Assembly (NCBI GenBank): GCA_964497565.1
Contig: CAZCCP010000006.1
Location: 1,449 to 65,448 of the forward strand
Reading direction: 5' to 3'
Source: an uncultured Candidatus Saccharibacteria bacterium
GTDB lineage: Bacteria; Patescibacteriota; Saccharimonadia; Saccharimonadales; UBA4665
DNA: 64,000 nucleotides
Shown here: one piece after another, positions 1 through 33,764 of the stretch
Numbering within the stretch: position 1 is the first letter of the stretch
Layout of the letters: every line of letters starts with the position of its first letter
Translations under genes and position numbers: made by a program
Notes under the pieces: model-generated
What the model was told of the DNA's origin: nothing
Databases searched by the model: none
The model's input: the letters and a program-made list of their open reading frames with translations, nothing else

Positions 1-1211
1 GCACCGGCCCAGCCGCCATACCGTGAAGCGTAGCCGCTGCACCACTTAAGCTGGGTCACTGGGTTAGATGGCCAGTCTGAGCCAGCACTTGCCATTTTGC
101 TTCCCGGCAAGGCCTGACAGAGACCGTAAGCACCAGATGCGTTATGCGCACCAGGGTTCCACCCAGACTCATGGCTAACGATGTAATCTACGTAAGCATA
201 GTCTCCTTGGGAGATACCTGCAAGCGCCATAACTGCCTTTTTGTCACTTGGAATCTGCACAGCCTTACCCTTGGCGACAATCTGCGCCACTGGCTGTTGC
301 ACGACAACCTCTTGAATTGCACGACGGCTAACCTCGACGCCGTTCTGTAGCTCAACCTCGTATGTTATAACCTTTTTACCAGGAGATCCCTGCTGACGAA
401 TAGCAGTCGTACCAAAGGTTAGCGAGCTGTCTTCAACGTTCTCAACAGGCATAGCGATATCCTCTTGAGAAGACACAATCTGTTTGCCCTTATGGATAAT
501 AAATACTTGCGTATTTGCGGCCAAAGGAGTCGATTCGGCAGGCTGCACGCTGTCTCCATCATGCAGCGTAATGCCCTTTTCCTTCAGAAGTGCGGACACT
601 GTCTTGGCATGTGTGCGCAGACCCACGGCAGTGCCATACAAATTCATATTTACTGGCGTTGCTCGATCGATAACCACACGCTCGCCAATCGAACTGTCGG
701 TTAGGAAGTTCTCTGTTGGCAATAATTTGAGGTTATCTTCTGGGTACACGGTTACGCCAGCCTGCTTAACAATGCTGCGAGGTGTTGCTGCGGCGCTATA
801 CGCAAACGTCTTTTGCTCACCGTCTATAACCGTGACTGGCACAGCGCGATACACGTTTACGCGAAAGTTATCACCGATGATTTGCGTATCACGGCTTGGT
901 TCGACAACGTCGCCTGAGTTGAGGTGAATCGAGAGTTTATCGAGCAATGAGCCAACAGTCTTGGCGCGCGTCGGAACCGTTTGGTGATGTTTGTCGTAGT
1001 CAAGGATAACGATGTTGGTGTCAGATGTCTGGAGCTTTGGGGTGCCGCCGTTCAGTACCAAAACGCCGACCATACCAAGAACAAGGAGCACCATAAATGT
1101 TGCTACCGGGATGGTAAACAGTGGCTTTTTGGCCAGTCGTTTAATATGACGGACGTGCCGACGTCTTGTCATATGAGCGCGACGTTGGAATTGTTGAAGT
1201 TTATTCGGCAT
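1..1211 (-). CDS. Secreted cell-wall protein with DUF348-like repeats, a G5-like domain and a C-terminal lysozyme/transglycosylase-like domain (YabE/RpfB-type architecture). The C-terminus runs off the left edge.
   Basis: Absent from the ORF track because it has no stop codon inside the window. My reverse-complement translation from the ATG at 1211..1209 gives MPNKLQQFQRRAHMTRRRHV. It continues with a TM anchor (LFTIPVATFMVLLVLGMVGVLVL), repeated DUF348-like modules, G5-like TYEVELQNGVEVSRRAIQEVVVQQPV, and then SHESGWNPGAHNASGAYGLCQALPG. Confidence 0.8.
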   Translation of the reverse strand, partial: MPNKLQQFQRRAHMTRRRHVRHIKRLAKKPLFTIPVATFMVLLVLGMVGVLVLNGGTPKLQTSDTNIVILDYDKHHQTVPTRAKTVGSLLDKLSIHLNSGDVVEPSRDTQIIGDNFRVNVYRAVPVTVIDGEQKTFAYSAAATPRSIVKQAGVTVYPEDNLKLLPTENFLTDSSIGERVVIDRATPVNMNLYGTAVGLRTHAKTVSALLKEKGITLHDGDSVQPAESTPLAANTQVFIIHKGKQIVSSQEDIAMPVENVEDSSLTFGTTAIRQQGSPGKKVITYEVELQNGVEVSRRAIQEVVVQQPVAQIVAKGKAVQIPSDKKAVMALAGISQGDYAYVDYIVSHESGWNPGAHNASGAYGLCQALPGSKMASAGSDWPSNPVTQLKWCSGYASRYGGWAG

Positions 1212-6488: not shown

Positions 6489-7298
6489 TTAGAAGAAGTG
6501 AGTATGTGGGATACCGTCTTTGACGAGTATTCCGGAGTCGAGAAGGATATCAACGACGATCACTGCAACAACTGCGAGGATGGCGAATGTTACAAAAAAC
6601 TTGAGCCAGCCATTGCTGTAGTTGTGGTGTGAGACGACAATTTGAGGCTGTGCTGACACGGGTTGTTCATCAGGCATGGTAGGAAGTGGCTCCGCAGTGT
6701 CATCTGGCTTAGACGGTTGCGCCTGTTGTACAGATGCTTGGAAATCGGACGCATCTTCAAACACAATACCCGTCGTACCGGGGTTCTGGGACTCTGGCTT
6801 GGATACTTCAGGTACCGTTGGTTCGGCCGCGGCGGGTACTGGCGGTTCCTGCTCAGACTGTGCTTCGGCTACGCCTGGGTTGCCAGAATCAGATGAGTTC
6901 GTATCGACTGTCGTACTAGTTGCTAACGTTGCTAATTCGTCGGCAACATAGGGCCCATCGTACGGTTTTGTCTGTGTGTCTGACTGGTCCTGCTCAGTAG
7001 GCGTAGGTGCAGTACTAGCGTCTGGCTGTTGATCGCTTGGCTGATCTGCTACGAGTGCATCTGCGACAGGCGCCGGCTTGGACTCATCGTTGGTTGGTTG
7101 AAGTGTGACTTTTTTGTTGCTGTCCATAAGTGAACGCTCCTCATTTCGGTCCGACATCATCGGATCTTTGACCTGCGGCTTGTGGCCCACAATTACCGAT
7201 CGTGCCGTAGGTTCCGCCACTGTTTTGCCAGGGCGCATAACATCAAACACTTTTCGTGGTGCAGTACTTTCAGAATCTTTTTTTGGTTTATGCTTCAT
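6489..7298 (-). CDS. Hypothetical low-complexity protein with a C-terminal TM anchor
   Basis: ORF track, 269 aa. Pro/Glu/Gln-rich body and C-terminal LKFFVTFAILAVVAVIVVDILL. Its start overlaps the end of tpiA by 11 nt, which suggests an operon. Confidence 0.65.
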   Translation of the reverse strand: MKHKPKKDSESTAPRKVFDVMRPGKTVAEPTARSVIVGHKPQVKDPMMSDRNEERSLMDSNKKVTLQPTNDESKPAPVADALVADQPSDQQPDASTAPTPTEQDQSDTQTKPYDGPYVADELATLATSTTVDTNSSDSGNPGVAEAQSEQEPPVPAAAEPTVPEVSKPESQNPGTTGIVFEDASDFQASVQQAQPSKPDDTAEPLPTMPDEQPVSAQPQIVVSHHNYSNGWLKFFVTFAILAVVAVIVVDILLDSGILVKDGIPHTHFF

Positions 7299-15856: not shown

Positions 15857-17062
15857 TTACCGAACGTATTTCATAAATGTCCGGTATGCGGGTAGCGCGC
15901 AGCTAAGACCGAACACGGCTATCGCGATATAGGCCGCGCCCACTGAGACATGATCGATGAGTGCCCCTACGAGCGGGCCAATCACTGCATACAGCAGCGA
16001 TATGATGCTCGTCATCACCGACAGCTCAGTTGTTCGTGAACTGGGGTCATGGGGTAGTACTTCGTGCAGATAGCTTCTAATGATCACCCCGAGTAGGTTG
16101 ATTGCGTACACGGAAACCAGCATGTATACCAGGACCGGCAACAGGCTCGTCGTCACGCCAGCGCAAAGCGCCAAGCTGGTGATGGCAATGATCGACCACA
16201 GCCAGATGCGCTCGTCATGTTGCTTCTTTTCGCCACGAACCTTGCGGTTTAGCAGCGTCAGGGAGGCGACGATCGCATACTGACAGAAGTAAATCACTCC
16301 GAAATACTTCGGCTCCACGCCAGCGACCTTCAGCCGCGGCTGAAAGATCCAGAACGCCACGAATGTGCAGCAGGAGACCGAAGCGTACAGCAGAATCGCG
16401 TAACGAACTGCCGGGCGATCTCGAAGCATCAGCTTGACGATATCCCGCAAGCTACGGCGTGTTGTGTGTATCTGTATCTGGTGTGTTGGCTTACGAAGCC
16501 CAAACCCCAGGCAGAGACAAACCAGCCATATGAAAGGCTGCACCATGAATGGCACACTAATGCCGCCCAAGTATACCGCCATGCCACCGCCCAGTGTTCC
16601 GACGCAAATCCCCCAGCTTCGGGCTCGACTTGCGGCGGATTCGTAGGCCTCGTATCGAGCGGCTCGCTCCTCGCCATCCTTGATGTATGCCACGCTCGCA
16701 GTTATGAGCGAGCTGCTCGAGTTTGACTGTGCCGAAACATACAACCCGGTTCCAATCAGCGCGAGCTGAAACTGCCAGAAGGTCGTACACAGCATAAAGC
16801 CGCTGCCCTGGGCGAGCTGCAGGAGATTGCCTGTAAAGATGACTCGCCGTACGCCGAACTTGTCGGCGAGGTAGCCGAAAGGCATGTCGCTCAGAACGAA
16901 CACGACGTTCAACGTTGTCTGTAGCCAGAAAATCTGGGTCTGCGTTAGGCCATGAGCATCCGTGTAGTAGGTGTTCATTACCGACGAGCCGAGAAAGATC
17001 TGGCGCACGAAGTCTAGTGCTACGCAAACGCGTGTGTTTCGGCGCTCAATTTCCTCGTCCAT
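15857..17062 (-). CDS. MFS transporter (12 TMS type), intermediate-to-high GC
   Basis: 401 aa with many TM segments and a GYLADKFGVRR-type loop motif. Several shadow ORFs around it indicate raised GC. Confidence 0.8.
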   Translation of the reverse strand: MDEEIERRNTRVCVALDFVRQIFLGSSVMNTYYTDAHGLTQTQIFWLQTTLNVVFVLSDMPFGYLADKFGVRRVIFTGNLLQLAQGSGFMLCTTFWQFQLALIGTGLYVSAQSNSSSSLITASVAYIKDGEERAARYEAYESAASRARSWGICVGTLGGGMAVYLGGISVPFMVQPFIWLVCLCLGFGLRKPTHQIQIHTTRRSLRDIVKLMLRDRPAVRYAILLYASVSCCTFVAFWIFQPRLKVAGVEPKYFGVIYFCQYAIVASLTLLNRKVRGEKKQHDERIWLWSIIAITSLALCAGVTTSLLPVLVYMLVSVYAINLLGVIIRSYLHEVLPHDPSSRTTELSVMTSIISLLYAVIGPLVGALIDHVSVGAAYIAIAVFGLSCALPAYRTFMKYVR

Positions 17063-17156
17063 CAGGTATGGACAACCTCTCTGTGAAAGTGCAAAGTCTT
17101 AGCCCTCTAGTTATACCACAGAGGTCTGCGCAGACGATGCTTGGTGCAAAATAGAA

Positions 17157-17209
17157 CAAAATGAAAAGCACCTACAGGTATTGACCGGTCGGGTCGACAC
17201 CTGTAGGTG
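17157..17209 (-). terminator. Terminator hairpin downstream of the CHAP gene
   Basis: CACCTACAGGT (17169-17179) pairs with ACCTGTAGGTG (17199-17209), with a 19-nt loop. On the minus strand it is followed by GCTTTTCATTTT. Confidence 0.6.
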
Positions 17210-17244
17210 TAATGCTTTTCAGAGCTCGGTGTCGAGCAGGGCCG

Positions 17245-17757
17245 TTACTTCTTGTAGATGAAGAAGTCCGGCTTGGGCGACTTCGACGCGTGCGGACCGA
17301 TGCCAGTGGCACCGATGTCCCGGAACGAAGGTCCCACTGTGTTCCAGCGGACCTCCCTCACTCGGAACGTGGCAGCACCAGCCCTGTAGCTGTAGACGTA
17401 CGCGAAGTGCGTACGGTGCGAAGTCCACACTGCCAGCGCGCCGGCCTTCGGCTTCGTACCGACCTTGTAGCCCCTGTTGAGGGCAGTCGACTTGAAGTTT
17501 TGGGTCCGCACATGGTCGAATTTGGTCCCAGTCCAGTGCTCCCACGCCCAGACGGCGTAGTCAGCGCACCAGCCCTTCGTGAGGGCTGCAGGGCTGTTGC
17601 CGCTGCTGTAGCCCGCGAAGGGATAGGACTTCGTGCTGTAGAACTGAGCGAGGGTCATGCTCTTGGCCTCGGCCAAGGGCGCAACCACGACGCCAGCCGT
17701 CAGCGTGAACACCAGTGCGGTGCCACCGACAGCCAGGCGTTGTTTTACTCGATTCAC
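17245..17757 (-). CDS. Secreted CHAP-domain (NlpC/P60-superfamily) peptidoglycan hydrolase, high GC
   Basis: Cys motif GWCADYAVWAW, His motif HRTHFAYVY and downstream REVRWN. Signal peptide ...VVVAPLAEA/KS. I place the start at the GTG at 17757, preceded by GGAGAA. The ORF track extends to 17823. Confidence 0.8.
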   Translation of the reverse strand: MNRVKQRLAVGGTALVFTLTAGVVVAPLAEAKSMTLAQFYSTKSYPFAGYSSGNSPAALTKGWCADYAVWAWEHWTGTKFDHVRTQNFKSTALNRGYKVGTKPKAGALAVWTSHRTHFAYVYSYRAGAATFRVREVRWNTVGPSFRDIGATGIGPHASKSPKPDFFIYKK

Positions 17758-17831
17758 GAGTTCTCCAGAGGTTCGCGACAATGTCGCACCGAAAACTGTT
17801 TGCCACTGATGTGGCGAAAGCACAGTTGTAC

Positions 17832-17859
17832 ATTATACACCTATTATGTGTATGTCCAA
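17832..17859 (-). promoter_or_regulatory. Promoter of the CHAP gene
   Basis: On the minus strand: TTGGAC, 16 nt, then TGTATAAT. Confidence 0.5.
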
Positions 17860-17875
17860 GGAGCTATCATAAAAT

Positions 17876-18379
17876 CTATGTATCGAGGGAGAACGTATAG
17901 TTCCCGGGCCAACATTCAGTCGGAACATATTCTTTGAAGTCGAGTTTTTTCTGGTATATTGCGGCTAGTGTCGGATTGTGCAATATTTCTTGTTCGGGAT
18001 GAGAGCTGGTGCCCGCCTGGATATACACGAAACCACTCGCACCGCCATACGGGAATGTACTTGGCGGATTGGCATGCAATGTCAACGTGCAGACTTTGTT
18101 GTTGGGGTTATCGTCCCGCCCCTGTCTTTTATAGTGACCGCTGTATCTGTAGGTAACGATGTCTGTCATGGTGGAAAGATCGCTGGAGCTGAAGCCTCGC
18201 GCGTCAAAACCGCGCTCGTTGATAGCAGTCTGTGCGATAGGGCCGTCGAATAGTCGGCTGTTGCTACTGTGTGTTATCGCAGCATGGATCATGGGAGCTA
18301 GCGCAATAAGCGCCGCGAGGGCGCCAAAAATACCCGCGATAGCACCGACTTTCTCCCAGTTGAATGAAGCAGCTTTCAT
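17876..18379 (-). CDS. Hypothetical N-terminally anchored protein
   Basis: ORF track, 167 aa. N-terminal TM VGAIAGIFGALAALIALAPMI. Confidence 0.65.
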   Translation of the reverse strand: MKAASFNWEKVGAIAGIFGALAALIALAPMIHAAITHSSNSRLFDGPIAQTAINERGFDARGFSSSDLSTMTDIVTYRYSGHYKRQGRDDNPNNKVCTLTLHANPPSTFPYGGASGFVYIQAGTSSHPEQEILHNPTLAAIYQKKLDFKEYVPTECWPGNYTFSLDT

Positions 18380-18536
18380 GGGCTCAGTATAACACTAGCG
18401 ATAAAATGTCTCGTGATGCATGCTTCGCGTAACTTACGAAAAGCCCCTCCCCAAGGATGGATCTCACGGAGAATAGTTTTGAGTTTTCACAGAGCAATTT
18501 GAATTTTAAGTATTTTTATTATAAAATACTACTAAT

Positions 18537-19550
18537 ATGGCTGATCGGGAATCGATAATCAACCCCTTTGAACAAGAGGGGATACTCAACACATTTGACG
18601 AGATACAAGCTGAGTCATTCTTTGCTACGCCAGAACTGCGAAGCGCTTTTTTACGCGACCTTACGTTCGAAGACTATACGAATTTCCTAACACTTATCAA
18701 TGAATCGTTTCAATTTGACGTAAGCGAGGTGCTTGACCCTACGAACACTAGTCAACATATGATCATAAGAAGCGATACAAACCAGGAGACGGGCAAGGTC
18801 CAAGATAAATGGCCGATATACATTGCACCAGGCCATGAACACAGGCCCTTACTACTTAATGAAGCGTTCACCGTCGCACAAGAGTTAGAAGATGTCGAAC
18901 AGGCAGCTACGCTATTGGGGCTATCGCTAAGTATGGTTCATCCTTTTAATGATGGTAACGGCCGTACAAGTAGAATTTTGTATAGCCTACTGACGCATGG
19001 CTATGATGGATCAAGTGCAGATAGACAATATTTTACTGAGCTCAGTAGTCACGAAGGAAGAGAGATAGTCTACTTTTCCCAAGAAGCTGCTAATCTACCT
19101 GGTTTGTTCGTAGGACGCGAGCTACGAACAAAGCAACTTTACGATGAGCCAAAGCAGTTGATCGATTTGCAACCACGAAAAGGCGACAGTTGGAAGTGGA
19201 GAACACGAGAGTTCCTGCTTGGTAAAACAGGCGTTGACCTCATGCTTCAAGAAGGCTACTTTGGCTTACCACTACTCATGGAAAAAGTGAAAGAAGACGG
19301 CCGTCGGCTTCAAGACTGCAGCGCTGTCACAATAAGCGTATCAGGGCAAACAATACAAAGGCTTGACATAGGAGAAGTCTACGCACGACCCAAAGACATA
19401 GACCAGCGTGCAACCACAGCCAGACATACACAACTCAAGCTTGAATATATACGCACTGTCATTGATTGTTTTCGGCCAGAAACACCAGACCCACTAATCA
19501 GTTCCGACGAAATCACTCGTGTATACGCTTCGCCCACAAAGAATGCTTAG
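18537..19550 (+). CDS. Fic/DOC-family protein (putative AMPylase)
   Basis: Canonical Fic motif HPFNDGNGRTSR, matching HxFx(D/E)GNGRxxR. Confidence 0.85.
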   Translation: MADRESIINPFEQEGILNTFDEIQAESFFATPELRSAFLRDLTFEDYTNFLTLINESFQFDVSEVLDPTNTSQHMIIRSDTNQETGKVQDKWPIYIAPGHEHRPLLLNEAFTVAQELEDVEQAATLLGLSLSMVHPFNDGNGRTSRILYSLLTHGYDGSSADRQYFTELSSHEGREIVYFSQEAANLPGLFVGRELRTKQLYDEPKQLIDLQPRKGDSWKWRTREFLLGKTGVDLMLQEGYFGLPLLMEKVKEDGRRLQDCSAVTISVSGQTIQRLDIGEVYARPKDIDQRATTARHTQLKLEYIRTVIDCFRPETPDPLISSDEITRVYASPTKNA

Positions 19551-19803
19551 TACAGGACTGCAGCGTAGTCGATTCTTTTATAAACAAGAAAAAAGCCCCA
19601 AGCGTACGCTTGAGACTCTTTTCTTGGTGAACCTACCCGCCCAGTTTTGGAAGACCTTTTGGCCTAGTCTGGAATTATTGCATGACAACTTAATCATGTT
19701 GGGTGTGTCCGACCACGAACTAATGCTGGAGGGTGGCGCTAATGTTGGCGTGGCTTCGGCTCGTGCATATAGAGAAGGAATCTAGTAGCAGACGGATTCA
19801 ACC

Positions 19804-21105
19804 CTATTTCTTAAGAGACACATTGAGTAGGGCTTTGGCGGTGGCATCTAATAGAAGCTCGAACTTGTTGTAGTCAGCCTTTGTGTCAACTAATGGATGA
19901 AAAAGCACCATAGCGATTTCGCGTTTTTCGTTGTCATAATATTTAATCTCCATTGCATCCCTTGTGAGAATCTCATGGTCTTCGTGCATTCGGACTATAA
20001 ATCGTCCCATCTCTTTTTGTGACTCGACGTATTCGTCGCCAATCAGTATGCGAAACGCGTCCCATTTTTGCATGGCATCAACTTTAGCATTTACTTCAGT
20101 ATCGCTTAGCTTAGCCTTTTTCTCTCTAATGACATTTGTATAACTAGCTTCTGACTCGTGCGCGACATAATTACGCTTTCGTTTTATCCACTTTATCCAC
20201 TTATTCATTGTTAATTCTGAATATAGAGCATAAAGATCATCATTCTTTGTTTTTAACTGCTCCAAGAACTTTTCATGTTCTATGTTAGGACGAACGTCCT
20301 TCCCACTTATACTAAAGAGCTCAGTGAGTAATCTTCCAATGATGTCGAATGAGCCAGAAAATAAGAAGTAGAGGTTGCTAAGATGGTAATTAAGCTCAAA
20401 TGAATAATCGTAAAAACTATCATAACCATAGGAGTCTTTAATCTTGTAGTTACGCTCAGCGTAATGCTTTCTTTGAACTAGAGACAGTATGGTTTCTTCA
20501 CAATACCTTATTTGTATGGCTTTATGTTGCAGGGCTCGGACGAAACTCATGTGCGTATTCGTGTAACCTAGTTCTCTAGGTGCTACGTTATTCAGATTCC
20601 GAAGGTTATCTAGAAGCGGTTTAGTTTCGATATATTTCGAGAACCAAGTCGCGTTCCATACTGGCTGGTTAAAATCCCATGGTACATTCTTTCCTGTTAC
20701 GTATGCTTCTATCTCGTTTTCAAGCTGTGCCGTAGTTTCAGCGTACTGGAACGGTTTACCAGTTTTGTAGAGATCGGCTATAAGTTTTAGATCATCGCTA
20801 TAAATAAGGTCAATATTATTCGAGTGAGCATAACTCAGTATTGGATCTACACCCTTATTGAGATCGTCAAATACGCTGTATCTATACTTTTCTTGGTTAG
20901 AAGCAAGACTTTCAGTGTTCGCAACTCTTATCTCGATTTCAAAATCAGCACCTATGTCGCTAACATAGTGCTTTAATATCTCTAGTTTTTGCATTAAAGA
21001 GTACAAGTAGCTCTCATTAGTATCCAGCAGCATTACTCTAAAAATAGCATTAGGTGCAGGATGTATGTTTAACTCTGGGAAGGTCGTACCATTTATTGTT
21101 GGCAT
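19804..21105 (-). CDS. Hypothetical 433-aa protein with a candidate HEPN Rx4H motif
   Basis: ORF track 19804..21108, which starts at a GTG. The ATG at 21105 follows the RBS GAGGAG. C-terminal region KRKRNYVAHESEAS contains R-x4-H. AT-rich codon usage. Confidence 0.75.
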   Translation of the reverse strand: MPTINGTTFPELNIHPAPNAIFRVMLLDTNESYLYSLMQKLEILKHYVSDIGADFEIEIRVANTESLASNQEKYRYSVFDDLNKGVDPILSYAHSNNIDLIYSDDLKLIADLYKTGKPFQYAETTAQLENEIEAYVTGKNVPWDFNQPVWNATWFSKYIETKPLLDNLRNLNNVAPRELGYTNTHMSFVRALQHKAIQIRYCEETILSLVQRKHYAERNYKIKDSYGYDSFYDYSFELNYHLSNLYFLFSGSFDIIGRLLTELFSISGKDVRPNIEHEKFLEQLKTKNDDLYALYSELTMNKWIKWIKRKRNYVAHESEASYTNVIREKKAKLSDTEVNAKVDAMQKWDAFRILIGDEYVESQKEMGRFIVRMHEDHEILTRDAMEIKYYDNEKREIAMVLFHPLVDTKADYNKFELLLDATAKALLNVSLKK

Positions 21106-21356
21106 CACAACTCCTCTAGATTGGTATTATCGTTTGAATTCTTCGAAGCTCTCACGAGCTGTTTTGAAGATCAACTTCACAATGTTGTAGTGGGGGTCGT
21201 TCTTATCTTCATCGTGCAGATCTGTTATTTTTGATCGCATTCGCTGCGAGAGTTCTTATATGTATATTACATCTCAAAACGCTGCTGCTTGCAATTTCAA
21301 CTCCTCTTAGGCATGCTTAAGAAAAGTAACGTGGTGGGCATGTGAGGGGGTAGCAC

Positions 21357-21977
21357 GTGGCCAAAGAAAACGAACAGCTCGATACGCTTCTTAAAATTAA
21401 AGAGTTGCTAAAGCCTTTGGAAAATAAAGAACTGCTTAGCGCAAATGAAAAAGAAGTTTCTGAAATTGCGCTAGAAGAAAATAAAAAAGAACTAATCCAG
21501 CTTTCGCTAGTAGAATTACGGCGTGTATACGATGGCGTACTCAGTTCACTGGATGCCTTACGCACTAAAGCTCTTGCGCTTCTTGCTGCTGAGGTTGCGA
21601 TTGTTGCATTTCTTTTCGCACCTACAGGAAGATCAGACACGGCATTCTTTGCATATGACACACCTGTTTATGGCGTTGTACTCTTTGGCCTAGGCCTATC
21701 GCTATTGTTCTCCTCGTTTGTACTTTTCTTAATTTCCATATCCTCAGTCAATGTTACCCACCCCCCTGACGAAAAAGATATTGTCGACATTTATGGACGT
21801 TTCCAAAATAGCCCTCTAAAATTTTTAGAGTATCTGAAATCAGAATATATGCGTGCTCTTTCGCAGTGTATCTCTAGAGTTAACCATCGCTCAAAAAGAT
21901 TTACGTGGGGAGTGTACTCGTTTGCTATTGGCATAGCCCTACTTATCTTGGTAAAATATTGTAGCAACGTAATATGA
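21357..21977 (+). CDS. Hypothetical protein: N-terminal coiled-coil-like region plus 3 TM segments
   Basis: ORF track, 206 aa. GTG start preceded by GAGGGGG. TM segments ALALLAAEVAIVAFLFA, VVLFGLGLSLLFSSFVLFLISI and VYSFAIGIALLILV. Confidence 0.7.
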   Translation: MAKENEQLDTLLKIKELLKPLENKELLSANEKEVSEIALEENKKELIQLSLVELRRVYDGVLSSLDALRTKALALLAAEVAIVAFLFAPTGRSDTAFFAYDTPVYGVVLFGLGLSLLFSSFVLFLISISSVNVTHPPDEKDIVDIYGRFQNSPLKFLEYLKSEYMRALSQCISRVNHRSKRFTWGVYSFAIGIALLILVKYCSNVI

Positions 21978-22030
21978 CGGGGGCGCAAACTATGACAAAA
22001 CAATATGACTACACAACAGCCTAAATAGGT

Positions 22031-22055
22031 AGAGCCCCCGTAAGGGGCTCTTTTT
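22031..22055. terminator. Bidirectional terminator between convergent genes
   Basis: GAGCCCC, loop CGTAA, GGGGCTC, then TTTTT. Confidence 0.7.
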
Positions 22056-22176
22056 ATTGTGGTAGTGGTGCTGTAAATGGCGGTACACCTGTAAGTTCAG
22101 TGCCACATGTAGGGCAATTGGTCTCTTCGTTCGAAACCCCCACTTCGCACTGAGGACACCATTTAAGTTCTGCCAT
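22054..22176 (-). CDS. Unlisted 40-aa zinc-ribbon protein
   Basis: My translation is MAELKWCPQCEVGVSNEETNCPTCGTELTGVPPFTAPLPQ*, with two CxxC pairs. RBS AAGGAG lies 6 nt upstream of the ATG (22176). The stop is embedded in the terminator. It falls below the ORF-track length cutoff. Confidence 0.55.
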   Translation of the reverse strand: MAELKWCPQCEVGVSNEETNCPTCGTELTGVPPFTAPLPQ

Positions 22177-22333
22177 ATTTAACTCCTTGTTATTTGGTAA
22201 CCTTACTGTAGCTTTGTCAATAAGAGTTTAGCAAGTATATTTTTTGCAACAGACATGATTTCATCCCCGTAGCCGAATCTCAAACTCCCCTTCGTTTACA
22301 GAGAGGATTAAAATTAACAGGGGGTCAAAGTTT

Positions 22334-22358
22334 TGGTGACCGGCGTGGAGAATCCACC
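22334..22358 (-). repeat. Degenerate copy of a tRNA 3' end (T-loop and acceptor-CCA-like)
   Basis: The plus strand TGGTGACCGGCGTGGAGAATCCACC resembles the tRNA-Glu 3' end TGGTGATCTCGCGGAGAATCGAAC, sharing TGGTGA...GGAGAATC. It does not fold into a full tRNA. Confidence 0.35.
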
Positions 22359-22461
22359 AGGTTGGCAGAACTATGCTCCCAGCATAGTTCCTACTATTCG
22401 TCGATTCTCTACTCAGCAATGACCAAAGAAAAACGCCCATCTTGCGATGAGCGCCTTTCTT

Positions 22462-22536
22462 TGGTGATCTCGCGGAGAATCGAACTCCGATTGCCGGGAT
22501 GAAAACCCGGTGTCCTAACCGTTAGACGACGAGACC
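22462..22536 (-). tRNA. tRNA-Glu (anticodon UUC), CCA encoded
   Basis: The minus strand reads GGTCTCG..GTCTAACGGTTAGGAC..CCGGG-TTTTCAT-CCCGG..CGGAG-TTCGATT-CTCCG-CGAGATC-A-CCA, which folds into a cloverleaf by hand. Confidence 0.9.
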
Positions 22537-22799
22537 ATTTTTGTGTTGGCATGACTGCCAATAACTGCTCTATTCTAACACATCTTTGTTAAAAAGAAAA
22601 TCCCCTGTCTCTCGATAGAGGATTAAACTTAGAGCGGTCAGTCACGATCGTTACTCTTACGTTAACATACGGTGTGTATGATTACTACGGTTATCCACAG
22701 CTTTGTTGTAAAAACGTTGTCATGCGGTGATAGCCAGCACAGTAATTCAGCGCCCTATTGGGGTAAACTATACGGTACATGTCAGCCCCAAGTGGCAGC

Positions 22800-24995
22800 T
22801 TACTTCGTTGGAACAACCAGTTCTTTGGTCTTGGCAAAGGTAAAACCAAACATGCTCCCCTTGCCCTCTTGGCTCTTGAAGATAACGGCGCCGCCCTGGG
22901 CGATGATCACTTTCTTGGCCATAAACAAGCCGAGGCCCGTTCCATCAGGCCGCGCTCTTTTGGCATTATTGGCACGATAGAATTTAGAAAATAGGTGGTG
23001 TTGCTCGGATTTGGGTACGCCAATGCCATCGTCGATTACAGCTAGTTCGATAGACTGTTGCTTGTCGACAAGGCTAATCGTAATGTGGCCACCACTTGGC
23101 GTGTAATAAATAGCGTTGTCAATGAAGTTCATGATGACCTGGCGCGTTTTAGTTTCATCGAGCCTGAGCGTTGGGAAGTGCTCTGGCTTGTGATACGTCA
23201 GCTCAAGGTTGCGGCCCTTGGCAGTCTCTACGAGCTGCTTTACTTCCTCGGCAACCATGTTGGCAAGGTTTGTTGGTACCGGTTCAATCACAAACTTGCC
23301 AGTACGCAAACGTGAGACGTTGAGGAGGTCAGAGATAAGGTAGACCATACGCTGGGCGCTGATGAAGGATTGGTTGAGCAGCTTCTTTTGGAGCGGCGTG
23401 AGGTCGCCCGCGTCACCATCGAGCACCATACTGACATAGCCCTTTACGCTGGTAAGCGGCGTGCGCAACTGGTGTGACGCCATACTAATGAAGTCATCCT
23501 TGGTTTCATCGAGTTGGCGAAGCTTATCGTTAGTGCGGCGCAATTTGCGGGTCGCGTCATCAACTTTTTGTTGCAGCGTCGCGTTAAAAGTTTCGATTTC
23601 CTCGAAGCGCAAAGCGTTCTGAATAGCGATCACCAGCTCGTTGGCGATAGTTTCGATAATTGTAATGTCTTGCGTTGTATACGGGTTTCCGCTTTTCTTT
23701 GGTCCTAATATAAGGTGTCCCATATCACGGCCAGATGCGCTCAACTGCACGAGTACGGCAATGTCATTTTTCTCCAGTACTTTACGGAGATTTGCCTCAT
23801 CATAGTCGAGTTCGTCGGTTGCAATGATCGAGGAATGGTTCTTGCTGCGGACCGATCGTGCGTGCGCTATCTTGATATCTTCACTACTAAATTTCTTGTT
23901 AGCGTTTCCCACTATGTGGCTTGGCCTGCCCTCCTGGTCTATAAGGGCAACTATAAAGAACTCGCACTTAAGGCTGTTGCTTACTGTTTCTACGACGCTG
24001 TTCAACAGCCTGTTAAGGTCGGCAGTTGTGACCAAGACTTTGTTCAAGCGGTTGAGCAACTCTTGCGGATCATAGGCATCGCGATAGAATAGTCGGTTGG
24101 TTAGCTTATCGAAGAATCTCTTGAGAACCGGAAAAACAAGCGCAGCAATAATCGCAAGCGTCACGTATAGCACACGTTCTAGCGGCGGGATGGTCTGCCC
24201 ACCTGGCAAAATCAACGAGATGACAATACTCAATGCACCGTACAGAATGACAAGTGCCGACAGTACAAATATATAAGCAATGGAGCGCGCTACAACCAGA
24301 CGCACATCAAAGAGACGGTGCTTCACAATCGCGTAGGTAATAAGCGCAATAAAGAACAGAAGTCCTATATATGAGACATTGCCGGCAAAAAGATTTATGG
24401 TCTCAGAGCTCGTAAGCTGGGGCACAATGAGATTGGCTGACATAAGAGCAACCGCCGCAATAGCCACCGCCCAAAGAATAATCATTAGCTGCGCGCGCGT
24501 AGAGTTACGGGCAACCCTCTTGGCGGTAATAAGATTGCCGATACTGGATAGTGCGATGATTGCTACTGCAGCCGTGTAAGGCACAAACATGTATCGATAG
24601 GTTATCGCAAGCTCACCGTCAACAAAGTGTGGGTGAGCAACAATGCCCGTTAATACAAGGAGGGAGAAAACTACCGCAAGCCCAAAGAAGACCATGCTGC
24701 TGGGCGTCTTAATGTTCTTCTTTTCCTTGGCTTGAACAAGCTGGCTATACGTAAAGCGCCAGAACGTATATACGAGTACTGGACCTAAGAAAAAGTCGGC
24801 GTACGTAAAATACAGTGCGTAACTATGTGTTTTGAAGTTCGCACCAATACAGTTTGCAATGACCCATATAGCCAAAAAGAATGTAAAGACGGCAAAGCTG
24901 CGATTAACATCAGCTTTGGTATTGCGCACATAGGTAAAGGAGCCTAGTCCCATCAAGGCCATTGCGATAAGTGCTACCCAGAAAGTCAGAATCAT
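22800..24995 (-). CDS. Sensor histidine kinase with a large polytopic N-terminal membrane domain
   Basis: H-box SHQLRTPLTSVKGY, N-box NFIDNAIYYT and G-boxes DDGIGV / GTGLGL. About 8-10 TM segments in the first ~290 aa. Confidence 0.9.
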   Translation of the reverse strand: MILTFWVALIAMALMGLGSFTYVRNTKADVNRSFAVFTFFLAIWVIANCIGANFKTHSYALYFTYADFFLGPVLVYTFWRFTYSQLVQAKEKKNIKTPSSMVFFGLAVVFSLLVLTGIVAHPHFVDGELAITYRYMFVPYTAAVAIIALSSIGNLITAKRVARNSTRAQLMIILWAVAIAAVALMSANLIVPQLTSSETINLFAGNVSYIGLLFFIALITYAIVKHRLFDVRLVVARSIAYIFVLSALVILYGALSIVISLILPGGQTIPPLERVLYVTLAIIAALVFPVLKRFFDKLTNRLFYRDAYDPQELLNRLNKVLVTTADLNRLLNSVVETVSNSLKCEFFIVALIDQEGRPSHIVGNANKKFSSEDIKIAHARSVRSKNHSSIIATDELDYDEANLRKVLEKNDIAVLVQLSASGRDMGHLILGPKKSGNPYTTQDITIIETIANELVIAIQNALRFEEIETFNATLQQKVDDATRKLRRTNDKLRQLDETKDDFISMASHQLRTPLTSVKGYVSMVLDGDAGDLTPLQKKLLNQSFISAQRMVYLISDLLNVSRLRTGKFVIEPVPTNLANMVAEEVKQLVETAKGRNLELTYHKPEHFPTLRLDETKTRQVIMNFIDNAIYYTPSGGHITISLVDKQQSIELAVIDDGIGVPKSEQHHLFSKFYRANNAKRARPDGTGLGLFMAKKVIIAQGGAVIFKSQEGKGSMFGFTFAKTKELVVPTK

Positions 24996-33260: not shown

Positions 33261-33328
33261 TTTTTGTCACGTGATTGGCTTGCAAAAACAGAGGTAATGG
33301 TGTACTATAGTTCTTGTCTACAGACTGT

Positions 33329-33405
33329 GGGCCACTAGCTCAGCTGGTTAGAGCGTCTGCCTCTTAAGCAGAATGTCCTGGGTTCGAGTCCCAGGTGGCC
33401 CTCCA
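33329..33405 (+). tRNA. tRNA-Lys (anticodon CUU), CCA encoded
   Basis: GGGCCAC-TA-GCTC-AGCTGGTTA-GAGC-G-TCTGC-CTCTTAA-GCAGA-ATGTC-CTGGG-TTCGAGT-CCCAG-GTGGCCC-T-CCA. Confidence 0.9.
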
Positions 33406-33408
33406 AAA

Positions 33409-33444
33409 GAAAACATCCTTCCTCGCCGAAGGATGTTTTCTTTT
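33409..33444 (+). terminator. Intrinsic terminator after tRNA-Lys
   Basis: GAAAACATCCTTC, loop CTCGCC, GAAGGATGTTTTC, then TTTT. Confidence 0.75.
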
Positions 33445-33513
33445 GTTGAGCTAATCTGGGCGAGATGGAGAATGTGAAAGACCGCCAGTGGCGGTTTTTC
33501 TTCGCACAGAGAA

Positions 33514-33577
33514 CGAGTCCCAGGTGGCCCTGCAGAGAGCCAAAAGAAACCATTCTTCCTCGCCGAGGAGTGTTTCT
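33514..33577 (+). repeat. Duplicate of the tRNA-Lys 3' end plus its terminator (att-like scar)
   Basis: CGAGTCCCAGGTGGCCCT (33514-33531) is identical to 33385-33402. It is followed by a diverged copy of the terminator whose stem is preserved through G-U pairs. Confidence 0.7.
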
Positions 33578-33764
33578 AGAGAGTGAATATATATTCTACG
33601 GGTTTATCAAATAGACTGGCAATTTTAAAGGCCAGTGGCAGACTGGGGTCATAGCGTCCAGTTTCGATAGCGTTAACTGTCTGTCGCGACACACCAAGCA
33701 GATCGCCAAGCTCAGCTTGGCTCCATTTTTGCTCCACGCGTAGTTGTCTGACTATATTGGTCAC
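33576..33764 (-). CDS. Small XRE-family helix-turn-helix regulator
   Basis: WSQAELGDLLGVSRQTVNAIETGRYDPSL is a classic Cro/C1 HTH. 62 aa. Confidence 0.85.
   Translation of the reverse strand: MTNIVRQLRVEQKWSQAELGDLLGVSRQTVNAIETGRYDPSLPLAFKIASLFDKPVEYIFTL

What the first reader, a model, noticed from the sequence alone, without database searches (positions are those of the whole stretch)
18461..22480. A ~4-kb AT-richer island at the 3' end of tRNA-Glu, bounded by a 14-nt direct repeat, carrying Fic and candidate defence genes
- The last nucleotides of tRNA-Glu (plus strand ATCTCGCGGAGAAT, 22467-22480) recur as ATCTCACGGAGAAT at 18461-18474. Orientation is the same and 13 of 14 positions match. 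This is the classic attL/attR signature of integration into a tRNA 3' end.
- A rough expectation for such a match anywhere in 64 kb is well below one.
- The enclosed segment is more AT-rich than the backbone. It encodes a Fic protein (HPFNDGNGRTSR), a 433-aa protein with an Rx4H motif, a coiled-coil/3-TM protein and a 40-aa zinc-ribbon peptide.
- No integrase is present, so this is probably a decayed element.
Basis: partly seen in the sequence, partly recalled or inferred. Interest (0 to 1): 0.6.

Follow-up and report, generated by a model that had tools for sequence, protein, structure and literature searches.

The report
Stacked gene islets behind tRNA-Glu
The 4-kb AT-rich stretch behind tRNA-Glu in this Saccharibacteria-like genome is real foreign DNA. 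It is a recombinase-less stack of small gene cassettes lodged between two copies of a repeat module that follows most tRNA genes here, not a single integrated element.

Summary
tRNA-Glu(UUC) lies at 22462-22536 (minus strand). Its 3' 14-mer recurs once, with one mismatch, at 18461-18474. These are the only two copies in the 1.15-Mb genome. The enclosed DNA has 41.8% GC against 50.1% for the genome.

The single-element reading does not hold. The distal repeat is the terminal piece of a ~130-nt trailer module (terminator hairpin, antisense T-arm copy, core hairpin, sense 3'-end copy). This module follows about 17-20 of the 29 tRNA genes in the genome.

The island is composite:
- A Fic cassette replaces the core of the distal module.
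- A mosaic 2.7-kb cassette sits at a TCACCA|hairpin junction between two modules. It carries a HEPN gene with the stub of a lost KAP-NTPase partner, a membrane protein and a zinc-ribbon peptide.

Large serine recombinase (LSR) islands use the same junction type at tRNA-Pro in this genome and at tRNA-Glu in at least one relative. In six relatives the LSR gene ends 41 nt inside tRNA-Glu. A 2.05-kb cassette at this junction is present or absent within the sister species' assembly.

The window holds no recombinase or recombinase remnant. The closest analogues are the Dehalococcoides ssrA islands and tycheposon/cis-mobilisable-element (CIME) accretion. Which recombinase acted remains inferred.

The parts
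17876..18379 (-). Conserved 167-aa flank gene. It marks the outer (distal) border of the variable region.
   Evidence: It is 93% identical to the orthologue in sister species G002, where it also borders the tRNA-Glu trailer.
18461..18474 (-). R3: distal sense copy of the tRNA-Glu 3' part (ATTCTCCGTGAGAT in tRNA sense). It is the terminal element of trailer module M2.
   Evidence: Searches show it is unique in the genome. One search aligns it with the R elements of intact modules. One search shows its T variant matches the tRNA-Glu of five congeners. The copy starts in the T-loop, like the R elements of other tRNAs.
18475..19567 (+). Cassette A: Fic gene (ORF 18537-19550) with a promoter-like site at 18499-18527. 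It occupies the place of the module core (the ~45-nt hp2 region).
   Evidence: Pfam Fic 5.6e-8, and PADLOC SoFic on the core only. The orthologous G002 module has a normal core and no Fic. The family has 281 distant relatives, the best at 44% identity. The AF2 model has pLDDT 87, and its best but weak PDB hits are SoFic-type Fic proteins.
19568..19630 (-). M2 proximal half: antisense-arm remnant GTCGATTCTTT (19568-19578), terminator hairpin hp1 (19585-19626) and TTGGTGA (19624-19630, which is TCACCAA in tRNA sense).
   Evidence: palindrome I2. Searches show 88% identity to G002 C13 and to the 49-nt end of G002 C39, which abuts the tRNA. One search gives the module alignment.
19631..19697 (-). 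Conserved distal end of cassette B. It is a pseudo-tRNA 3' end (..TTCCAAAACTGGGCGGGTAGGT|TCACCA in tRNA sense).
   Evidence: It is conserved at 78-89% in G002, G003, G004, G068 and G276, next to unrelated cargo. The LSR islands at G001 tRNA-Glu and G000 tRNA-Pro have the same layout at their distal ends.
19804..21105 (-). 433-aa HEPN_Cthe2314-family protein: an N-terminal alpha/beta domain followed by a helical HEPN domain with RNYVAH.
   Evidence: Pfam 31.1 bits against a 27.1 cut-off. About 30 full-length homologues exist. R311, N312 and H316 are invariant. The AF2 model has pLDDT 85.8 with no PDB fold match. Homologues lie in tRNA-linked islands.
21127..21240 (-). 37-codon stub: the 3' end of a lost KAP-NTPase gene that precedes the HEPN gene in the closest homologous locus.
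   Evidence: 89% amino-acid identity to the C-terminus of the 529-aa KAP_NTPase gene in L026. Nucleotide homology runs 21257-19808 at 83% and stops there.
21357..21977 (+). Membrane protein of 206 aa as an ORF. Homologues are 165-195 aa, so the true start may be later or the N-terminus is a local extension.
   Evidence: Ten homologues, all solitary genes in unrelated contexts. Nucleotide homology to L088 over 21277-21348 and 21474-22054. No Pfam family.
22031..22051 (.). Bidirectional terminator hairpin between the membrane-protein gene and the zinc-ribbon ORF.
22054..22176 (-). 40-aa zinc-ribbon ORF (two CxxC pairs) with AAGGAG upstream.
   Evidence: Weak Pfam DZR match below the cut-off. No homologue found in the fetched loci.
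22282..22333 (-). Proximal end of cassette B (TCACCA|AAACTTTGACCCCCTGTTAATTTT.. in tRNA sense).
   Evidence: A metagenome contig (L070) carries ..TCACCA|AACATTTGACCCCTGTTAATT directly behind an identical tRNA-Glu. This is a short match and only suggestive.
22334..22354 (-). R1: degenerate sense copy of a tRNA-Glu 3' end (GATTCTCCACGCCGGTCACCA). It is the terminal element of module M1.
22355..22461 (-). M1: intact trailer-module body. It holds core hairpin hp2 (22368-22390), antisense arm GTCGATTCTCT (22400-22410) and terminator hairpin hp1 (22419-22468).
   Evidence: I5. One search shows ~85% identity to the trailer of tRNA-Glu(ctc) on contig C1..
22462..22536 (-). tRNA-Glu(UUC) gene with encoded CCA.

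Best explanation
The region 18461-22461 is a composite variable region in the trailer of tRNA-Glu(UUC), with no recombinase of its own. It is not one integrated element.

Its skeleton is two copies of a ~130-nt tRNA trailer module. Each module has a terminator hairpin hp1 directly after CCA, an antisense copy of the T-arm, a core hairpin hp2, and a sense copy 'R' of the tRNA's 3' part that starts in the T-loop. M1/R1 (22334-22461) is intact and abuts the tRNA. M2/R3 (19568-19630 plus 18461-18474) is the older, distal copy.

Two foreign insertions sit in this skeleton:
1. A 1.1-kb Fic cassette replaces the core of M2.
2. A 2.7-kb cassette B (19631-22333) lies between R1's TCACCA and M2's hp1.

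That junction type (a tRNA 3' end, or a copy of it, followed by hp1) is the one used by islands elsewhere. Large-serine-recombinase (LSR) islands use it at tRNA-Pro in this genome and at tRNA-Glu in relative G001. A recombinase-less islet uses it at tRNA-Ala in this genome. A recombinase-less cassette family with the same conserved distal end uses it in four or five other species.

Cassette B is itself a patchwork of single-gene pieces: a HEPN gene with the stub of its lost KAP-NTPase partner, a membrane-protein gene, and a zinc-ribbon peptide.

Inferred mechanism: site-specific recombination at the CCA|hp1 junction, by a recombinase supplied in trans or once carried and then lost. An LSR is the most likely candidate. 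This was followed by accretion, deletion and gene-sized recombination.

The cargo probably acts as stand-alone conflict genes. The Fic protein has a canonical AMPylation motif and the HEPN protein has an invariant Rx4H RNase motif. These functions are inferred from motifs only.
For: SHOWN
- Repeat, tRNA gene and GC dip.
- Module behind most tRNAs: sense copies of 10-24 nt at +96..+113 and antisense copies at +49..+54 behind at least 17 of 29 tRNAs. The same layout occurs behind tRNA-Glu in other genera and in metagenome contigs.
- M1/R1, the tRNA-Glu(ctc) trailer, G002's module and G001's module all align. M2 aligns up to the antisense arm, and then the Fic cassette begins.
- G002: the same flank genes, three R copies, no Fic, the same hairpin and distal end, and a different 2,055-nt cargo (Schlafen AlbA_2/HATPase_c_4).
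- G002 short form: contig C39 joins the hairpin directly to the tRNA. The exact overlaps are 55 nt and 54 nt, so both forms exist in the reads.
- Synteny: the histidine-kinase side is syntenic and the 3' side differs in every species.
- LSRs occur in 31 of 41 relatives. In six of them the LSR ORF ends 41 nt inside tRNA-Glu.
- G001's 32-kb LSR island and G000's own 9.3-kb LSR island at tRNA-Pro both end in a pseudo-3'-end followed by hp1 and a displaced module.
- A 5.5-kb recombinase-less islet at tRNA-Ala has the same junction.
- Cassette B's distal ~70-85 nt is conserved in G002, G003, G004, G068 and G276 next to unrelated cargo: RT+Fic, Schlafen-like, isochorismatase.
- Mosaic structure of cassette B.
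- HEPN homologues lie in tRNA-linked islands, one of them LSR-led.

LITERATURE
- Dehalococcoides ssrA islands have a CcrB-like serine recombinase whose 3' end overlaps ssrA, 20-bp repeats that start in the T-loop, tandem islands, and some islands without integration genes (PMC3146451).
- Tycheposon islands carry partial tRNAs and stacked integrations (10.1101/2020.12.28.424599).
Against: - No recombinase or remnant lies in or next to the island.
- G000's only LSR sits at tRNA-Pro, and its junction sequences are different.
- G002 shows the presence/absence polymorphism but has no LSR hit in a 99%-complete bin. The acting enzyme is therefore unidentified.
- Cassette B lacks the ~110-nt proximal end shared by most relatives of its family. 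It abuts R1 rather than the tRNA itself.
- The L070 match that supports its proximal end is only ~19 nt.
- The origin and function of the trailer module are unknown, so 'older' and 'younger' copies are inferences.
- Defence or toxin roles are untested. The HEPN protein has no PADLOC hit, and the SoFic hit covers ~75 residues only.
Confidence: 0.65

Rival explanations
1. One ~4-kb element integrated into the tRNA-Glu 3' end by a tyrosine integrase, creating the 14-nt attL/attR pair. It later lost its integrase.
For: - The repeat is unique in the genome and correctly oriented.
- The enclosed block is low in GC.
- The repeat starts in the T-loop, a classical integrase sublocation (PMC3146451).
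Against: - The same kind of copy follows about 17-20 tRNAs at a fixed ~108-nt distance with no island.
- G002 keeps three such copies at the orthologous place without Fic.
- Internal junctions at 19630|19631 and 22333|22334 carry their own tRNA-end copies.
- The HEPN and membrane-protein pieces have separate homology blocks elsewhere.
- There is no integrase remnant.
Confidence: 0.07
2. No site-specific recombinase is involved. Cargo is swapped by homologous recombination, for example after natural transformation. The conserved arms would be tRNA-Glu on one side and the hairpin/module plus the conserved ~70 nt on the other.
For: - The flanks are conserved while the cargo is unrelated across six species.
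- No recombinase occurs in any of these cassettes.
- Gene-sized mosaic blocks are present.
Against: - G002's short form lacks the conserved ~70 nt and joins the hairpin to the tRNA exactly at TTGGTGA. The ~70 nt therefore belongs to the inserted unit and is not a host arm.
- LSR islands use the identical junction.
- The arms are very short (75 nt and ~110 nt).
Confidence: 0.15
3. The cassettes were inserted by the same unknown machinery that spreads the tRNA trailer modules. In this model the Fic cassette and cassette B are cargo-bearing versions of that miniature element.
For: - The Fic cassette sits exactly where the ~45-nt module core normally lies, between the antisense arm and R.
- Modules occur in tandem and border islets.
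- Earlier scan notes report modules that come and go between strains (these are unchecked leads).
Against: - No mechanism or enzyme is known.
- Cassette B sits between modules, not inside one.
- LSR islands explain the CCA|hp1 junction without this assumption.
Confidence: 0.1
4. The region is ancestral and the differences between species reflect differential gene loss.
For: The distal flank and the R copies are shared with G002.
Against: - GC is 3.4 SD below the genome mean.
- Fic has no close relative anywhere; the best match is 44% identical.
- The HEPN and membrane-protein homologues sit in unrelated loci.
- Every species has different genes at this position.
Confidence: 0.03

Closest known systems
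Dehalococcoides ssrA-specific genomic islands (McMurdie et al. 2011, PMC3146451)
   Same: - Islands stack downstream of one small RNA gene.
- They are bounded by ~20-nt direct repeats of its 3' end that begin in the T-loop.
- In relatives the agent is a large (CcrB-like) serine recombinase placed at the gene-proximal edge, whose ORF runs into the RNA gene on the opposite strand.
- Some tandem islands lack integration genes and are read as cis-mobilisable.
   Different: - The target here is tRNA-Glu (also Pro and Gly), not tmRNA.
- The window's island has no integration module at all.
- The junction used by the cassettes is the CCA|terminator boundary, with a pseudo-tRNA end on the element.
- The repeats belong to a genome-wide trailer module that Dehalococcoides is not reported to have.
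Tycheposons and tRNA-flanked islands of Prochlorococcus (Hackl et al., bioRxiv 10.1101/2020.12.28.424599)
   Same: - A small streamlined genome in which islands lie next to tRNA genes.
- Partial tRNAs are scattered through the islands.
- New arrivals push older ones outward.
- The recombinases are tyrosine or large serine types.
- Cargo includes defence genes.
- Populations are heterogeneous for element presence.
   Different: - Tycheposons carry their integrase and often replication genes.
- The cassettes here are 1-3 kb and carry neither.
Cis-mobilisable elements (CIMEs) and accretion at tRNA att sites (concept cited in PMC3146451; from established knowledge of Streptococcus ICESt elements)
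   Same: - The units are flanked by att-like tRNA-end copies.
- They have no integrase.
- They are stacked in tandem.
- One member (in G002) is present or absent within a population.
   Different: - Mobilisation by a resident element has not been shown.
- No cognate ICE or IME is present in G000.
SoFic / class II Fic AMP-transferases (SO_4266, PDB 3eqx)
   Same: - Canonical HxFx(D/E)GNGRxxR motif.
- Similar size (~340-370 aa).
- These are the best structural and PADLOC hits.
   Different: - Matches are weak: Foldseek E 0.04 and TM 0.23, and the PADLOC match covers ~75 residues.
- No clear (S/T)xxxE(G/N) inhibitory motif is present.
- Anti-phage activity is untested.
HEPN_Cthe2314 family (Anantharaman et al. 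2013, PMC3710099; Pfam PF18730)
   Same: - The score is above the Pfam cut-off.
- The Rx4H motif is invariant.
   Different: - The paper lists no operon partner for the family.
- Here the closest locus pairs it with a KAP NTPase gene, of which only a 37-codon stub remains in the window.
- The N-terminal alpha/beta domain has no solved relative.

Membership tests
tDNA-integrated genomic island (Islander-type definition) | Intact tRNA gene at one end and a displaced fragment of its 3' end as a direct repeat at the other end. | tested here: inconclusive
   Both are present. However, the distal fragment is the terminal element of a trailer module that also follows tRNAs with no island. It therefore does not mark this island's own integration.
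tDNA-integrated genomic island (Islander-type definition) | Integrase gene inside the island, usually next to the tRNA. | tested here: not met
   PF00589 and PF07508 searches place G000's recombinases on contigs C16, C19 and C4 only. tblastn of nine recombinases against 17000-23000 finds no remnant.
tDNA-integrated genomic island (Islander-type definition) | Atypical composition, and absence from related genomes. | tested here: met
   GC is 41.8% against 50.1%, the third-lowest region of the genome. None of the four genes is at this locus in seven congeners.
Large-serine-recombinase tDNA islands (Dehalococcoides ssrA-GI type) | LSR gene at the gene-proximal edge, with its 3' end overlapping the RNA gene. 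| tested here: not met
   Absent in the window. Present at tRNA-Glu in G001, G022, G029, G031, G037 and G038, and at tRNA-Pro in G000.
Large-serine-recombinase tDNA islands (Dehalococcoides ssrA-GI type) | Same insertion junction and element-end architecture as LSR-bearing islands. | tested here: met
   Cassette B's distal end is a pseudo-tRNA 3' end followed by TCACCA and hp1. The G001 tRNA-Glu and G000 tRNA-Pro LSR islands have the same arrangement.
Cis-mobilisable element (CIME) | Flanked by att sites and lacking its own integrase. | tested here: met
   Cassette B lies between R1..TCACCA and ..TCACCA+hp1. No recombinase is present.
Cis-mobilisable element (CIME) | Excision or integration when a cognate integrase is supplied. 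| not testable with these tools
   The only indirect evidence is that the related G002 cassette is present or absent within one assembly.
SoFic single-gene defence system (PADLOC PDLC03963) | Full-length match to the SoFic profile. | tested here: not met
   The match covers residues 78-152 of the protein and positions 141-211 of the 361-position profile, E 1.8e-8.
Fic/DOC family (PF02661) | Score above the gathering cut-off, and an HxFx(D/E)GNGRxxR motif. | tested here: met
   33.9 bits against a cut-off of 24, with HPFNDGNGRTSR. The motif residues are nearly invariant in 25 relatives.
HEPN_Cthe2314 (PF18730) | Score above the cut-off, and a conserved Rx4-6H motif. | tested here: met
   31.1 bits against 27.1. 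R311, N312 and H316 are invariant in 23 sequences.
Saccharibacteria tRNA trailer module (undescribed; defined here by layout) | hp1 directly after CCA, an antisense T-arm copy at about +50, core hairpin hp2, and a sense 3'-end copy at about +108. | tested here: met
   M1/R1 (22334-22461) has all four parts. M2/R3 has hp1, the antisense arm and R, but its core is replaced by the Fic cassette.
RtT RNA (Rfam RF00391) | Match to the covariance model. | tested here: not met
   No RtT hit at E<=1 in 18300-22700, or at E<=10 in 33300-33650.
Integron | An IntI integrase with attI and attC-flanked cassettes. | tested here: not met
   The genome holds only a Xer-like recombinase and one other tyrosine recombinase, and neither is at this locus.

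The most novel reading that the evidence does not exclude
In Saccharibacteria, the trailer modules behind tRNA genes may act as standing landing pads. In this reading, each tRNA 3' end or its module-borne copy, followed by the conserved A-rich terminator hairpin, forms a reusable attachment site. Serine recombinases, acting in cis or in trans, would deposit, stack and exchange small promoter-bearing gene cassettes at that site. These cassettes carry Fic, HEPN, RT+Fic or Schlafen-type ATPase genes. This would be an integron-like cassette-capture system spread over many tRNA genes in a phylum with few other known routes of gene gain.
Probability: 0.18. Interest if true: 0.8.

Novelty: new variant of a known kind. 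Interest (0 to 1): 0.5.

Why it matters
Saccharibacteria are tiny epibiotic bacteria with reduced genomes, and their mobile elements and defence repertoire are poorly charted.

This locus shows that their tRNA 3' flanks are active gene-gain sites. It also shows that the recombinases found there in relatives are large serine recombinases whose genes read into the tRNA. Gene-sized cassettes without any recombinase accumulate at one precise junction.

The locus carries a practical warning. In this lineage a tRNA 3'-end repeat is not in itself an island boundary, because most tRNAs carry such a copy in an undescribed trailer module. Island-calling software that relies on displaced tRNA fragments will mis-delimit islands here.

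The cargo comprises a rare Fic family, a HEPN_Cthe2314 protein with an unsolved N-terminal domain, and remnants of a KAP-NTPase/HEPN pair. These give testable candidates for toxin or anti-phage functions.

Tried and rejected
- Orthologous loci in metagenomes via the 167-aa flank protein: no relative found. An exact-sequence look-up also found nothing on record.
- Genome-collection scan for cassette B's distal end with an 18-mer pattern: too unspecific. It returned 120 chance hits in unrelated phyla, and only the already known G004 contig was relevant.
- Integrase remnants: none. The only match is the trivial one of LSR tails to the antisense strand of the tRNA.
- HEPN and membrane protein as a two-gene system: rejected. 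Their homologues never co-occur.
- Pycsar-type membrane effector: one homologue carried a precomputed PF18967 label. hmmscan of eight family members gave no significant family.
- Fold searches: the HEPN model has no PDB match with E<0.1. The Fic model matches only Fic proteins, and weakly.
- An 88-aa ORF at 19519-19785: rejected as a gene. It reads through the hairpin and has no family hit.
- Rfam: nothing but the tRNA in the island.
- The G073 hit to the distal end: a 28-nt match with no tRNA within 20 kb, treated as chance.

Full report
**Observation**

ARAGORN and Rfam place tRNA-Glu(ttc) at 22462-22536 on the minus strand, with an encoded CCA. Its 3' 14-mer ATCTCGCGGAGAAT (22467-22480, plus strand) recurs once as ATCTCACGGAGAAT at 18461-18474, in the same orientation. 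With up to one mismatch, these are the only two copies in the 1,146,628-bp, 31-contig assembly.

The enclosed 3,987 nt have 41.8% GC against 50.1% for the genome. That is 3.4 SD below the mean of 4-kb windows and the third-lowest region of the genome. The four ORFs exist as described. No recombinase lies in the window. The genome's tyrosine recombinases are on C16 (Xer-like, present in all congeners) and C19, and its one large serine recombinase is on C4. tblastn with nine recombinases finds no remnant.

Named homologue records and a congener's record title indicate Candidatus Saccharibacteria.

**Comparison with relatives**

The histidine-kinase side of the tRNA is syntenic in G001-G005 and G007. 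The side downstream of the tRNA's 3' end differs in every species. Only the sister species G002 (about 75-80% nucleotide identity) shares the MFS-CHAP-167-aa flank.

In G002, the 167-aa gene is followed by three tRNA-Glu 3'-end fragments and no Fic gene. Next comes a hairpin 88% identical to window 19585-19697, then 2,055 nt of different cargo, then tRNA-Glu. The cargo is a Schlafen AlbA_2/HATPase_c_4 protein.

A second G002 contig runs from the kinase through the tRNA and then directly into that hairpin. Its first 55 nt equal C13 positions 7096-7150, and C13's last 54 nt equal the tRNA. The assembly therefore contains both a form with the 2-kb segment and a form without it, joined exactly at TTGGTGA. 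This is an empty site for a cassette at this junction, although not for G000's own cassette.

**What the 14-mer is**

Aligning tRNA-Glu trailers showed a second degenerate 3'-end copy at 22334-22354. It also showed that the ~190-nt trailer is ~85% identical to the trailer of tRNA-Glu(ctc) on contig C1. That trailer ends in a perfect 20-nt copy of its own tRNA's 3' end. The same layout follows tRNA-Glu in many genera and in metagenome contigs.

A scan of all 29 tRNAs of G000 then gave the following:
- At least 17 carry a 10-24-nt exact sense copy of their own 3' part at +96 to +113. A few carry it at about +150 or +200, in tandem arrangements.
- Most carry an 8-11-nt antisense copy of their T-arm at +49 to +54.
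- Between the two lie a perfect terminator hairpin (hp1), a conserved purine-rich motif, a covarying hairpin (hp2) and a second conserved motif.
- The sense copy starts inside the T-loop.

Rfam has no matching family. Earlier notes of this scan describe the same module family in at least 18 Saccharibacteria genomes. I treat those notes as leads, and the pattern above is my own result.

In the alignment of modules, the window's distal 14-mer is the 'R' element of a second module, M2. M2's hp1 and antisense arm lie at 19568-19630. The Fic cassette sits where the ~45-nt core lies in G002, in G001 and in both intact G000 tRNA-Glu modules. The repeat is therefore real and non-random, but it is not the attR of a 4-kb element.

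**Anatomy**

Reading from the tRNA outward:
- tRNA-Glu
- M1 (hp1, antisense arm, hp2)
- R1 (22334-22354)
- cassette B (22333 down to 19631)
- TCACCA plus hp1 and the antisense arm of M2 (19630-19568)
- Fic cassette (19567-18475)
- R3 (18474-18461)
- the 167-aa gene

Cassette B ends distally in a pseudo-tRNA 3' end (..TTCCAAAACTGGGCGGGTAGGT|TCACCA). This ~70-85-nt end is conserved at 78-89% in G002, G003, G004, G068 and G276, which represent three genera. It always lies next to an hp1-type hairpin and, where the contig allows, a tRNA-Glu lies 1.2-9.6 kb away. The cargo between them is unrelated: a Schlafen-like ATPase, isochorismatase+DUF1653, or reverse transcriptase+Fic plus metabolic genes. 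No recombinase domain turned up among the ORFs I listed, ten of which I scanned against Pfam.

Cassette B is itself a mosaic:
- 21257-19808 is 83% identical to a soil-metagenome locus in which the HEPN gene follows a 529-aa KAP-NTPase gene. Only that gene's last 37 codons survive in the window.
- 21277-21348 plus 21474-22054 match the membrane-protein gene of another contig.
- HEPN and membrane-protein homologues never co-occur.

**Who inserts at this junction**

Large serine recombinases are common in this family, with 31 of 41 relatives positive. In G001, G022, G029, G031, G037 and G038 an LSR ORF of 511-571 aa converges on tRNA-Glu and stops 41 nt inside it. Its tail ..SL(M/V)VTSR(R/G)IE(L/P)(R/L)LPG is therefore encoded antisense to the tRNA.

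G001's island is 32 kb. It ends in a pseudo-3' end followed by ..TCACCAT, hp1 and a complete displaced module. G000's own LSR island at tRNA-Pro(tgg) spans 9.3 kb of low-GC DNA, and its LSR ORF ends 13 nt inside the tRNA. It ends the same way. A 5.5-kb low-GC islet at tRNA-Ala(ggc) has the same distal junction and no recombinase. A HEPN homologue is cargo of an LSR island at tRNA-Gly.

The junction that bounds cassette B is thus the one used by LSR islands. This is the basis for inferring a serine recombinase acting in trans, or one that was once present and then lost.

Three facts weaken the inference:
- G002, the polymorphic species, has no LSR hit.
- G000's only LSR has different junction sequences.
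- Cassette B abuts R1, not the tRNA itself, and lacks the ~110-nt proximal end that most family members share. A 19-nt match to a metagenome contig, where this proximal sequence follows the tRNA directly, is only suggestive.

**Cargo**

- *Fic.* It has the canonical HPFNDGNGRTSR motif. It belongs to a sparse family: 281 hits among 1.84 billion representatives, four at E<=1e-30, and a best match of 44% identity. Its model is confident (pLDDT 87), and the best but weak structural neighbours are SoFic-type proteins. The two homologue loci I examined hold solitary genes.
- *HEPN protein.* It passes the Pfam cut-off for HEPN_Cthe2314 and has invariant R311/N312/H316. Its model is confident (pLDDT 86), with an N-terminal alpha/beta domain and no solved relative. 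The family paper lists no partner.
- *PADLOC.* It recognises only the Fic core.

A toxin or defence role is therefore a reasonable inference from motifs and neighbourhoods. It has not been demonstrated.

**Comparison with known systems**

The nearest described system is the Dehalococcoides ssrA island family. It has a serine recombinase overlapping the RNA gene, 20-nt repeats that start in the T-loop, tandem stacking and integrase-less members. Tycheposon islands show the same stacking with partial tRNAs.

The window's region fails the integrase criterion of a tDNA island. It meets the criteria for a cis-mobilisable, accreted remnant as far as these can be tested.

Two features are new relative to those systems:
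- the interleaving with a genome-wide, undescribed tRNA trailer module;
- a recombinase-less cassette family with conserved ends at the CCA|terminator junction.

**Verdict**

The island itself is a fairly ordinary decayed and accreted tDNA hotspot. Its context raises the interest to moderate: trailer modules as scaffold, and LSR genes that read into tRNAs.

Noticed in passing
Whole G000 genome; in the window, tRNA-Lys(ctt) 33329-33405 with its module at about 33406-33540: About 17-20 of 29 tRNA genes are followed by the same ~130-nt module. It has a perfect terminator hairpin, an antisense T-arm copy at +49..54, the conserved motif GAAnAATGAG, a covarying hairpin, the conserved motif CTTCGCACAGAGAA, and then a sense copy of the tRNA's 3' part that starts in the T-loop at +96..113. 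There is no Rfam match. Its origin and function are unknown.
   Followed up: partly
L025 12732-14447; L044 218-1789; L045 193-1908; L046 1349-3064; L047 216-1808; L048 179-1714: In six related species a large serine recombinase ORF converges on tRNA-Glu and ends 41 nt inside it. This gives a conserved C-terminal tail (..VTSRRIELRLPG) encoded antisense to the tRNA. Dehalococcoides DsiB shows the same oddity at ssrA.
   Followed up: partly
G000 contig C4 44682-54230 (outside the window): This is the genome's own LSR island at tRNA-Pro(tgg). The 563-aa LSR ends 13 nt inside the tRNA, and the island spans 9.3 kb of 38-45% GC. Its distal end is a pseudo-3' end followed by a displaced full trailer module.
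   Followed up: partly
G000 contig C10 12743-18400 (outside the window): A 5.5-kb low-GC islet of six ORFs lies behind tRNA-Ala(ggc). It has no recombinase and ends in ..TTAGGCTCCACCA followed by an hp1 hairpin.
   Followed up: partly
window 22282-22316 and 22597-22631: Imperfect 35-nt direct repeats (74% identical, sharing AGAGGATTAAA) flank the unit of tRNA-Glu, M1 and R1. One lies downstream of the histidine-kinase gene and the other at the proximal end of cassette B. They may be chance or a duplicated terminator-like element.
   Followed up: no
G000 contig C19 (8.2 kb): A separate small contig carries a 340-aa tyrosine recombinase, an HTH protein, a Dcm-type methyltransferase, two large genes of restriction-enzyme appearance and a RadC-like gene. 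It is probably another mobile restriction-modification (R-M) island.
   Followed up: no
window 21357-21474: The membrane-protein ORF has a ~35-40-residue charged N-terminal extension that is absent from all ten homologues. Nucleotide homology to the closest loci skips 21349-21473. This is either a local insertion or a mis-called start.
   Followed up: partly
L213 606-3149 (G068): A cassette with the same conserved distal end carries a reverse transcriptase (RVT_1) next to a 391-aa Fic protein. This may be an RT-Fic defence pair.
   Followed up: no
window 18475-18500: Next to R3, the plus strand reads TTTTCACAGAGCAA. This is a near-copy of the module's 3' motif CTTCGCACAGAGAA, but in inverted orientation.
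   Followed up: no
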